A DNA stretch of 64,000 bases, taken from the NCBI RefSeq assembly GCF_058153355.1, contig NZ_CM177019.1. One strand, written 5' to 3'. Below the pieces are notes generated by a model. It was not told where the DNA came from and did no database searches. It saw nothing but the letters and a program-made list of their open reading frames with translations. Shown piece after piece: positions 61,938 through 62,384 of the stretch. Both the position numbers and the translations under genes were made by a program. Every line of letters starts with the position of its first letter. Within the stretch, counting starts at the first letter, position 1.

Positions 61938-62384
61938 ATGTCAGCTCTCAAAGAGACTGCATCAATGTTAAAATTATTCAATGAAGCAAAAACTCAGGCT
62001 GAGGTTGATCGCGCTGTGTCTGAAATAAACTCTAAGTTGTCAGGCATTCAGCTTGAATATTTGTCTCTCATTGATGAGCTGACAATCTCTAAAAGCAATG
62101 AGGCTGCGCTCAAAGCAAAACTCACGGAGATAGAAAAGCTTAAGTTCCAAAGTGAAGACTGCGAACCTCGCCAATTGATTACTGGAACGATTGTGTATGC
62201 CAGACAGTGCAATACTAGCTCTGGCAAGATTACCATGTATTTTTGTCCAGAATGTTTTGCGAAGAGAGCAATATCTATATTGCAACCTTTCCCTATCGAG
62301 GAAGGCGATAAATATACGAAAACTCAATGTCCCTCCTGTAAAAATGAGTATCTCATGGACTACAATTTCAATAATGATTTTTGA
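61938..62384 (+). CDS. hypothetical coiled-coil / zinc-ribbon protein, 148 aa, opposite strand to the early operon
   Basis: AT-rich ORF; extended -10 TGTATAAT at 61887..61894; N-terminal heptad-like region, C-terminal CPEC...CPSC. Confidence 0.45.
   Translation: MSALKETASMLKLFNEAKTQAEVDRAVSEINSKLSGIQLEYLSLIDELTISKSNEAALKAKLTEIEKLKFQSEDCEPRQLITGTIVYARQCNTSSGKITMYFCPECFAKRAISILQPFPIEEGDKYTKTQCPSCKNEYLMDYNFNNDF

What the first reader, a model, noticed from the sequence alone, without database searches (positions are those of the whole stretch)
61938..62384. Opposite-strand, AT-rich coiled-coil/zinc-ribbon gene at the sieB-like position of prophage 2
The early region of prophage 2 runs on the minus strand, but this 148-aa ORF is on the plus strand with its own extended -10 element and is more AT-rich than its neighbours. 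The product has a coiled-coil-like N-terminal half and CPEC...CPSC near the C-terminus, and I recognise no family. In lambda and Rac the corresponding position, between the kil-like small genes and the repressor, holds superinfection exclusion genes, so a single-gene exclusion or abortive-infection function is a reasonable hypothesis.
Basis: partly seen in the sequence, partly recalled or inferred. Interest (0 to 1): 0.65.

Follow-up and report, generated by a model that had tools for sequence, protein, structure and literature searches.

The report
Rip1-family prophage anti-phage defence gene
The opposite-strand gene in this E. coli prophage is a distant relative of Rip1, a recently described prophage protein that detects an invading phage's DNA-packaging ring and is thought to open a pore that kills the infected cell, so it is a new member of a known defence family, not a new kind of system.

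Summary
The 148-aa plus-strand ORF at 61938-62384 is real. It is AT-rich (GC about 0.40 against 0.45-0.54 in the flanks). It has one long helix and a C-terminal four-cysteine zinc-ribbon domain.

It belongs to a large single-domain family: 1,206 clusters at 50% identity, with only the four cysteines invariant. Family members include HK620/HK630 HkaP and Pseudomonas phage D3112 orf25.

A family profile hits PDB 9oox, "ring interacting pore 1 (Rip1)" of phage HK446 bound to phage T6 small terminase, at E=4e-39. The AlphaFold model (pLDDT 92.9) superposes on 9oox (TM 0.71/0.82). HK446 rip1 occupies the same slot, antisense to the early-left operon.

About 100 bp upstream is homologous to the upstream regions of HK446 rip1, HK620 hkaP and P22 sieB. 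The TATAAT at 61886-61891 aligns with the -10 of the annotated P22 sieB promoter.

The family is already known.

Caveats:
- Identity to the characterised Rip1 is only 24-25%.
- This allele has a private 10-bp deletion that removes the ancestral start and shortens the N-terminus by 7 residues.
- No function was tested here.

The parts
61938..62384 (+). rip1-like ORF, 148 aa plus stop. Helices at residues 2-16 and 20-73, then a beta-rich zinc-ribbon domain at residues 76-142. CPEC at residues 103-106 and CPSC at residues 131-134.
   Evidence: ORF list. PHROG 1244 at E=3.7e-33. Family profile against PDB 9oox Rip1 at E=4.4e-39. phmmer at E=9e-7. BLASTP against HK446 Rip1: 24% identity over 138 aa, E=8e-10. 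AF2 pLDDT 92.9. Foldseek against 9oox_M: prob 1.00, TM 0.71/0.82.
62244..62339 (+). Codons of the four zinc-ligand cysteines: C103 at 62244-62246, C106 at 62253-62255, C131 at 62328-62330, C134 at 62337-62339.
   Evidence: They are the only invariant columns in the 121-sequence alignment A2. They align with the CAQC and CHRC motifs of HK446 Rip1.
61822..61925 (+). Conserved promoter/leader cassette. It is shared with HK446 rip1, HK620 hkaP, P22 sieB, SfIV orf36 and PhiR29_2.
   Evidence: Alignments A3 and A4. blastn found matches in 103 phage records, including P22-like sieB upstream regions. The P22 record annotates the 'sieB RNA start site' promoter at the aligned place.
61886..61891 (+). 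-10 hexamer TATAAT, with TG at 61884-61885 directly adjacent. The inferred transcription start is near 61898.
   Evidence: Read from the sequence. It aligns with TAAACT of the annotated P22 sieB promoter and with TAAAAT of HK446 and HK620. It was not called by the two-hexamer scan because the -35 is poor.
61824..61857 (.). Nearly invariant core TGCCTG(T)CTTTTAACCACRTCAGGCnnGGTGGTTC, just upstream of the -35 position. It contains the inverted repeat GCCTG/CAGGC. Its function is unknown.
   Evidence: Invariant columns in A3 and A4 across loci whose downstream genes share 25% identity or less, or are unrelated. The stem shows no variation, so there is no covariation evidence either way.
61925..61937 (+). 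Scar of the ancestral start. GTG ATG TAT TAG is now a dead-end mini-ORF. A 10-bp deletion (TTGATCTATC) lies after 61931, and the ORF restarts at the ATG at 61938, which is Met8 of the orthologues.
   Evidence: Alignment with the three closest E. coli alleles, all of which keep the 10 bp. Orthologues begin MFDLSLAMSALKE.
62414..62437 (.). Hairpin GCCGGA-N12-TCCGGC between the convergent rip1-like ORF and ydfC. It is a candidate terminator, with a T-rich tail only on the minus strand.
   Evidence: Read from the sequence. The scan flagged a smaller terminator-like site at 62429..62416 on the minus strand. A terminator role is inferred.

Best explanation
The ORF is a divergent member of the Rip1 ('ring interacting pore 1') family of stand-alone, prophage-encoded anti-phage proteins.

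Proposed mechanism:
1. In the lysogen the gene is transcribed from its own sieB-type promoter, antisense to the repressed early-left operon. (Inferred from promoter homology.)
2. The protein, a long helix plus a C-terminal zinc-ribbon domain, stays inert until a superinfecting phage reaches late gene expression and assembles its small-terminase ring.
3. Rip1 subunits bind that ring and are templated into a roughly 12-mer cap. (Shown by others for HK446 Rip1 with T6 small terminase; inferred here.)
4. The assembled ring forms a membrane pore that collapses the cell before progeny are released, i.e. abortive infection. (Suggested by the molecule's name and a conference report; inferred here.)

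This allele lacks the first 7 residues of its orthologues because of a 10-bp deletion, so it may be weakened.
For: Family membership:
- A profile of the window ORF plus two alleles retrieves 1,206 representatives, nearly all full-length single-domain proteins of about 150-170 aa.
- The 121-sequence profile hits PDB 9oox chain L, 'ring interacting pore 1 (Rip1)', at E=4.4e-39. That entry holds 12 such chains.
- The single sequence hits 9oox at E=9e-7.
- BLASTP against HK446 Rip1 gives E=8e-10. hhalign gives probability 97.3%.
- The AF2 model has pLDDT 92.9. Its only significant PDB fold hits are 9oox_M and 9oox_L, 'HK446 Rip1 in complex with phage T6 small terminase', at TM 0.71/0.82.

Genomic setting:
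- HK446 rip1 lies antisense between the cIII side and N. HK620 and HK630 hkaP lie in the same place.
[quoted passage not shown] That is the slot that holds the defence gene tab in JBD26 (PMC10884400).
- The promoter cassette is homologous to the annotated P22 sieB promoter.

Function of the characterised member:
- bioRxiv 10.64898/2026.04.30.721860 states that Rip1 senses the small terminase subunit.

Selection: pN/pS is 0.3-0.4 between close alleles.
Against: - Identity to the only characterised member is 24-25%, so the trigger and the effector step could differ.
- The primary Rip1 paper could not be found in the library. The mechanism rests on a PDB title, a conference summary and one citing sentence.
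- The allele has a private 10-bp deletion. Its N-terminal segment is 17 aa, against a family median of 25; only 4 of the 121 aligned sequences (this allele included) have 20 aa or fewer.
- A sister allele in strain PSJ-22 carries two premature stops, so this lineage may be decaying.
- The prophage itself looks degraded: an IS110-family transposase lies beside a short recE.
- The N-terminal helix showed no significant amphipathic moment across the family, mean z about 1.1. The pore-forming element was therefore not identified here.
- PADLOC 2023, Pfam and NCBIfam have no model for the family.
Confidence: 0.8

Rival explanations
1. The gene is a Rip1-family remnant that is inactive or hypomorphic in this strain. 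The 10-bp deletion destroyed the native start, and the shortened protein is poorly translated or cannot assemble or insert.
For: The deletion is unique to the window among the four closest alleles. No Shine-Dalgarno sequence lies in front of the ATG at 61938, whereas AAGAAGAG sits at the right distance for the ancestral start. The N-terminus is shorter than in 117 of the 121 aligned sequences. The PSJ-22 allele is a pseudogene. An IS insertion in the prophage points to decay.
Against: The remaining 148 codons are intact. The stop of the 3-codon mini-ORF lies 2 nt before the ATG at 61938, a geometry that allows reinitiation (inference). A few natural family members start at about the same position, for example P0014 MALSALKE.... 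The AF2 model of the short form is confident.
Confidence: 0.3
2. It is a Rip1 homologue with a different trigger, such as another ring-shaped phage assembly like the portal or another packaging or replication ring, or with a non-pore effector. It would share only the scaffold with HK446 Rip1.
For: Identity to HK446 Rip1 is only 24-25%. Substitutions between close alleles fall almost entirely in the helical half. E. coli alleles are mosaic: the 3' half is shared at 96% identity while the 5' half differs. That pattern is expected of a fast-evolving specificity module.
Against: The full-length architecture and all four cysteines are conserved across the family. No extra domain is present, and no partner gene is shared between the different genomic contexts seen here.
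Confidence: 0.15
3. It is a zinc-ribbon regulator of nucleic acid or transcription, for example DksA/TraR-like or an antirepressor-type factor, that acts on the prophage's own lysis-lysogeny circuit and not on invading phages.
For: A coiled coil followed by a C4 zinc site superficially resembles DksA/TraR. The gene sits in a regulatory region beside Rha/Ant, isrK and C4 RNA elements.
Against: There is no Pfam hit to zf-dskA_traR or to any DNA-binding family. The zinc site lies in a beta zinc ribbon, not a helical finger. No DksA-type structure is among the fold hits, and only Rip1 is significant. The family occupies known defence or moron slots in unrelated phage types.
Confidence: 0.03

Closest known systems
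Rip1 (ring interacting pore 1) of Escherichia phage HK446, PDB 9oox, gene HK446_037
   Same: Full-length homology, the same fold (a long helix plus a C-terminal 4-Cys zinc-ribbon domain) and similar size (148 against 164 aa). Both are stand-alone genes antisense to the early-left operon of a lambdoid prophage. The upstream promoter cassettes are homologous.
   Different: Identity is only 24-25%. The window protein lacks about 18 N-terminal residues of HK446 Rip1, including its Gly/Ala-rich stretch [24 protein letters not shown]. Of these, 7 residues were lost through a private 10-bp deletion. Its neighbours are ydfC and a DicF-like remnant, not N and cIII. Activity and trigger are untested.
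HkaP of phages HK620, HK630 and HK629
   Same: Same protein family (tblastn E=4e-9), same slot and same upstream cassette. HK620 hkaP is annotated 'putative superinfection exclusion protein' on positional grounds.
   Different: About 25% identity. HkaP sits between cIII and hkaQ/N in an N-type lambdoid early region. I found no experimental data on it.
SieB of P22 and lambda
   Same: Same genomic slot and orientation. The promoter region is homologous, at 80.6% over 61 nt and including the annotated sieB RNA start promoter. SieB is a single-gene abortive exclusion system expressed from the prophage (P22 record annotation; the phenotype is from my own knowledge).
   Different: There is no sequence relationship. 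The window ORF hits only PHROG 1244 and no SieB family. SieB has no zinc ribbon. No internal Esc-like self-protection product is evident here.
Tab / anti-Tab of Pseudomonas phage JBD26 (PMC10884400)
   Same: [quoted passage not shown] That is the slot where D3112, DMS3 and JBD30 carry their Rip1-family gene. Both act late, against virion-assembly components.
   Different: The proteins are unrelated (Tab is 83 aa). Tab targets the tape measure protein, blocks tail assembly and needs an anti-Tab partner. No partner gene accompanies the window ORF.

Membership tests
Rip1 (ring interacting pore 1) family | Significant full-length sequence similarity to the characterised HK446 Rip1 | tested here: met
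   Profile against 9oox_L at E=4.4e-39, covering profile positions 4-149 and chain residues 14-160. phmmer at E=9e-7. BLASTP at E=8e-10, 24% identity over 138 aa. hhalign probability 97.3%.
Rip1 (ring interacting pore 1) family | Same fold: a long N-terminal helix followed by a compact beta zinc-ribbon domain | tested here: met
   AF2 pLDDT 92.9. Foldseek against the PDB: 9oox_M at TM 0.71/0.82 and rmsd 2.6 A over 118 columns, 9oox_L at prob 1.00. The next hit has E=0.2.
Rip1 (ring interacting pore 1) family | Two CxxC pairs in the C-terminal domain | tested here: met
   C103, C106, C131 and C134 are invariant in 121 sequences. They align with the CAQC and CHRC motifs of HK446 Rip1. Zinc binding itself was not tested.
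Rip1 (ring interacting pore 1) family | Stand-alone prophage gene with its own promoter, antisense to a lytic operon | tested here: met
   The same slot and a homologous upstream cassette occur in HK446, HK620 and the window. The -10 aligns with the annotated P22 sieB promoter. Expression in the lysogen was not measured.
Rip1 (ring interacting pore 1) family | Binds the small-terminase ring of an invading phage and assembles into a roughly 12-mer cap | not testable with these tools
   Known only for HK446 Rip1 with T6 small terminase (9oox title; 12 chains; PMC12908700). No multimer modelling tool was available.
Rip1 (ring interacting pore 1) family | Protects against phage by pore formation or abortive infection | not testable with these tools
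   This needs plaque assays, infection curves and membrane-potential assays.
Rip1 (ring interacting pore 1) family | Complete N-terminal segment, typically about 25 residues before the long helix | tested here: not met
   A 10-bp deletion removes the ancestral start. The segment is 17 aa against a median of 25. Whether this segment is required for activity is unknown, so the result lowers confidence in activity, not in homology.
SieB superinfection exclusion family | Sequence similarity to SieB | tested here: not met
   The PHROG, Pfam and NCBIfam scans give no SieB hit. Only the slot and the promoter are shared.
DksA/TraR zinc-finger family | zf-dskA_traR domain after a coiled-coil hairpin | tested here: not met
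   No Pfam hit for the sequence or for any of the 121 family members. The model has a single long helix and a beta zinc ribbon. No DksA-type structure is among the fold hits.

The most novel reading that the evidence does not exclude
Two readings are not excluded.

First, this subfamily, at about 25% identity to HK446 Rip1, may use the shared zinc-ribbon scaffold with a rapidly diversifying, recombining helical half to recognise a different ring-shaped phage assembly than the small terminase, or a different range of terminases.

Second, the ~100-bp cassette shared by rip1, hkaP, sieB and an unrelated SfIV gene may be a portable expression module for lysogen-expressed exclusion genes. Its invariant 34-nt core (61824-61857) would then be an unrecognised regulatory element.
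Probability: 0.15. Interest if true: 0.5.

Novelty: new member of a known kind. Interest (0 to 1): 0.3.

Why it matters
It gives a likely function to a gene that public records call 'hypothetical protein' and that Pfam, NCBIfam and PADLOC 2023 do not model.

It shows that Rip1 relatives form a very large family: at least 1,206 clusters at 50% identity. The family includes HK620 HkaP and the antisense gene between the terminase genes of D3112- and DMS3-type Pseudomonas phages.

It also shows that the sieB slot of lambdoid prophages carries interchangeable exclusion genes behind a shared promoter cassette.

For this strain the practical consequence is a possible abortive-infection defence against phages with a susceptible small terminase. 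This copy may be weakened by its 5' deletion.

Tried and rejected
Database scans with no result:
- Pfam, on the single sequence and on all 121 family members, gave nothing below E=0.1 apart from generic zinc-ribbon noise.
- PADLOC gave no hit.
- NCBIfam gave only sub-threshold zinc-ribbon matches.
- The word-indexed protein search found only one near-identical cluster. The exhaustive profile search was needed to see the family.

DksA/TraR idea (coiled coil plus C4 site): rejected on Pfam and fold grounds.

Pore-forming element: a test for a family-wide amphipathic N-terminal helix gave a hydrophobic moment barely above shuffles (mean z 1.1), so I make no claim about which part forms the pore.

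Conserved upstream core as an RNA structure on the antisense strand: the GCCTG/CAGGC stem never varies. A second hairpin has three compensated pairs, but from only two or three lineages. The result is inconclusive.

DicF: the Rfam match at 61655-61691 reaches only 22 bits against a gathering score of 48, so I treat it as a remnant.

Literature: seven of the ten searches aimed at the primary Rip1 paper and failed. Tsao et al. 2018 (PMC6199475) is not held. The Fc02 exclusion paper (PMC9936078) concerns different genes.

Full report
**1. The observation**

The window has a 148-aa ORF at 61938-62384 on the plus strand. Every neighbouring gene is on the minus strand:
- a RecE-like exonuclease (58014-59942)
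- a racC-like gene (59966-60310)
- ydaE (60337-60624)
- a Rha/antirepressor ORF (60635-61483)
- ydfC (62503-62721), ydfB (62751-62909) and ydfA/DUF1391 (62869-63024)
- a DicA-like HTH repressor (63227-63733)

GC is 0.39-0.41 over the ORF, against 0.51-0.54 on either side. CPEC (residues 103-106) and CPSC (131-134) are present as described. A perfect TATAAT sits at 61886-61891 with TG directly in front. This is not the canonical extended -10 spacing, and there is no good -35, so the simple scan did not call a promoter. The chromosomal flank (holE, yobB, yobA, copD, yebY) shows that the host is E. coli.

**2. It is a real gene in a large family**

PHROG 1244 (unknown function) matches at E=3.7e-33. 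Pfam, NCBIfam and PADLOC give nothing usable.

Only 3 of 5,426 complete E. coli genomes carry this allele. Other prophages carry a 42%-identical homologue in the same place and orientation, immediately downstream of ydfC.

A three-sequence profile searched against 1.84 billion representatives found 1,206 proteins at E<=0.001. Almost all are single-domain, about 150-170 aa, and matched end to end. In a 121-sequence alignment the only invariant columns are the four cysteines. Between the two closest allele types pN/pS is 0.3-0.4.

**3. Identity: Rip1**

The family profile hits one PDB entry far above everything else: 9oox, 'ring interacting pore 1 (Rip1)', at E=4.4e-39, with 12 such chains in the entry. 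Further evidence:
- The window protein alone hits 9oox at E=9e-7.
- BLASTP against the HK446 protein gives 24% identity over 138 residues, E=8e-10.
- hhalign gives probability 97.3%.
- An AlphaFold2 model built on the family alignment is confident (pLDDT 92.9). It has helices at 2-16 and 20-73 and a beta-rich domain at 76-142.
- Its only significant matches among solved structures are 9oox chains M and L, 'Cryo-EM structure of the Escherichia phage HK446 Rip1 in complex with the Enterobacteria phage T6 small terminase' (TM 0.71/0.82, rmsd 2.6 A, prob 1.00). The next hit has E=0.2.

**4. What is known about Rip1**

I could not find the primary paper in the library. Two sources describe the protein:
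[quoted passage not shown] - A 2026 preprint lists Rip1 among defences that sense the small terminase subunit (10.64898/2026.04.30.721860).

The mechanism I propose for the window gene is transferred from these sources by homology. Nothing about binding, assembly or pore formation was tested here.

**5. Genomic logic**

HK446 rip1 (HK446_037) lies on the strand opposite the early-left operon, between the cIII side and N. HK620, HK630 and HK629 hkaP are family members in the same place. The HK620 record already calls hkaP a 'putative superinfection exclusion protein'. PhiR29-type phages carry a homologue next to cI.

[quoted passage not shown] JBD26 carries the defence gene tab in that slot (PMC10884400). 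No partner gene is shared between these contexts, so this looks like a single-gene system.

**6. The promoter cassette**

About 100 bp upstream of the ORF (61822-61925) aligns with four kinds of locus:
- the upstream regions of HK446 rip1 and HK620 hkaP, whose proteins are only about 25% identical to this one
- P22 sieB
- an unrelated 144-aa SfIV gene
- PhiR29_2

The P22 record annotates a promoter, 'sieB RNA start site', at the aligned position. Its -10 (TAAACT) aligns with the window's TATAAT. The 'sieB-like position' is therefore a homologous expression slot, not just an analogy.

Because the gene is antisense to the early-left operon, it is free to be transcribed while that operon is repressed. 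Readthrough during induction could dampen it. That last point is inference.

A 34-nt core (61824-61857) just upstream of the -35 position is nearly invariant across all these loci, and I cannot explain it. A fold of the antisense strand gave no decisive covariation.

**7. Caveat on this particular copy**

Compared with its three closest relatives, the window allele has a private 10-bp deletion after 61931. The ancestral start (GTG/ATG at 61925/61927, giving MFDLSLAMSALKE...) now reads M-Y-stop. The ORF begins at the next ATG, 61938, which has no obvious ribosome-binding site of its own. Reinitiation is plausible, because the mini-ORF's stop lies 2 nt upstream, but this is inferred.

The N-terminal segment is 17 residues, against a family median of 25. 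Only 4 of the 121 aligned sequences, this allele included, have 20 residues or fewer. The PSJ-22 allele has two premature stops. The prophage also carries an IS110-family transposase beside a short recE. This copy may therefore be weakened or decaying.

**8. Allele diversity**

Substitutions between close alleles fall almost entirely in the helical half. E. coli alleles of the KFu019 type are mosaic: many strains share the 3' half at about 96% identity while their 5' half differs. This would fit a fast-evolving specificity region, but I could not test it.

**9. Verdict**

The finding is a new, divergent and possibly damaged member of a known family.

My confidence that it belongs to the Rip1 family is above 0.9. 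My confidence that the overall explanation holds, including a Rip1-like mechanism, is about 0.8. Interest is modest at 0.3. The main added value is threefold:
- annotation of a widespread 'hypothetical' family
- the link between hkaP, D3112 orf25 and Rip1
- the shared sieB-slot promoter cassette

Noticed in passing
window 61925-61937: A private 10-bp deletion (TTGATCTATC after 61931) relative to the VL40, WGI31CT and PSJ-22 alleles. It turns the ancestral start into a 3-codon mini-ORF and shortens the protein by 7 residues.
   Followed up: yes
window 61824-61857: A nearly invariant 34-nt core containing the inverted repeat GCCTG/CAGGC. It lies upstream of the promoter and is shared by rip1, hkaP, P22 sieB and an unrelated SfIV gene. 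It is more conserved than the genes it precedes, and its function is unknown.
   Followed up: partly
L011 1607-2041 (Shigella phage SfIV orf36): A 144-aa protein with no cysteines and no similarity to Rip1 or SieB sits behind the same promoter cassette. It is a third, uncharacterised cargo type for the sieB slot.
   Followed up: no
window 61655-61691 (-): A DicF-like sequence at 22 bits, below the gathering score of 48, that lacks the central stem. It looks like a remnant of DicF downstream of ydfABC, as in Qin-type prophages. The rip1-like gene therefore sits between ydfC and the DicF position.
   Followed up: partly
window 61244-61432 (-): A C4 antisense RNA (61244-61331, 72.8 bits) and isrK (61356-61432, 60.2 bits) both score above gathering. 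Both lie inside the first ~80 codons of the 282-aa Rha/Ant ORF (60635-61483), whose Rha domain starts at residue 108. The real antirepressor start is therefore probably further downstream, in a P1 c4/ant-like or Gifsy isrK-like module that stands where other prophages have dicB.
   Followed up: partly
window 61521-61634 (-): A partial STnc100 sRNA match at 34 bits, below the gathering score of 47.
   Followed up: no
window 56575-57750 (+): An IS110-family transposase (273.7 bits) lies next to a 642-aa RecE-like ORF that is shorter than the exonucleases at the same place in other prophages. This is a sign that the prophage is degraded.
   Followed up: partly
window 53436-54512 (-): A tyrosine integrase sits directly beside chromosomal copD/yebY. 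This is probably the left end of the prophage.
   Followed up: partly
L009 1911-2378 (E. coli PSJ-22): The sister allele of the rip1-like gene has two premature stop codons and is not annotated as a gene.
   Followed up: yes
L002 4420-4875 and the hits: Rip1-family alleles in E. coli are mosaic. Many strains share the 3' (zinc-ribbon) half at about 96% identity while their 5' (helical) half differs. This suggests recombination inside the gene.
   Followed up: partly
L002 5322-5522: In strain KFu019 a small 'ECs_2282 family putative zinc-binding protein' lies on the opposite strand just beyond ydfC. It is another antisense small gene in the same early region.
   Followed up: no
window 59750-60650: The racC-like and ydaE genes are as AT-rich (GC 0.36-0.39) as the rip1-like gene. 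Low GC is therefore not unique to the antisense gene in this region.
   Followed up: no
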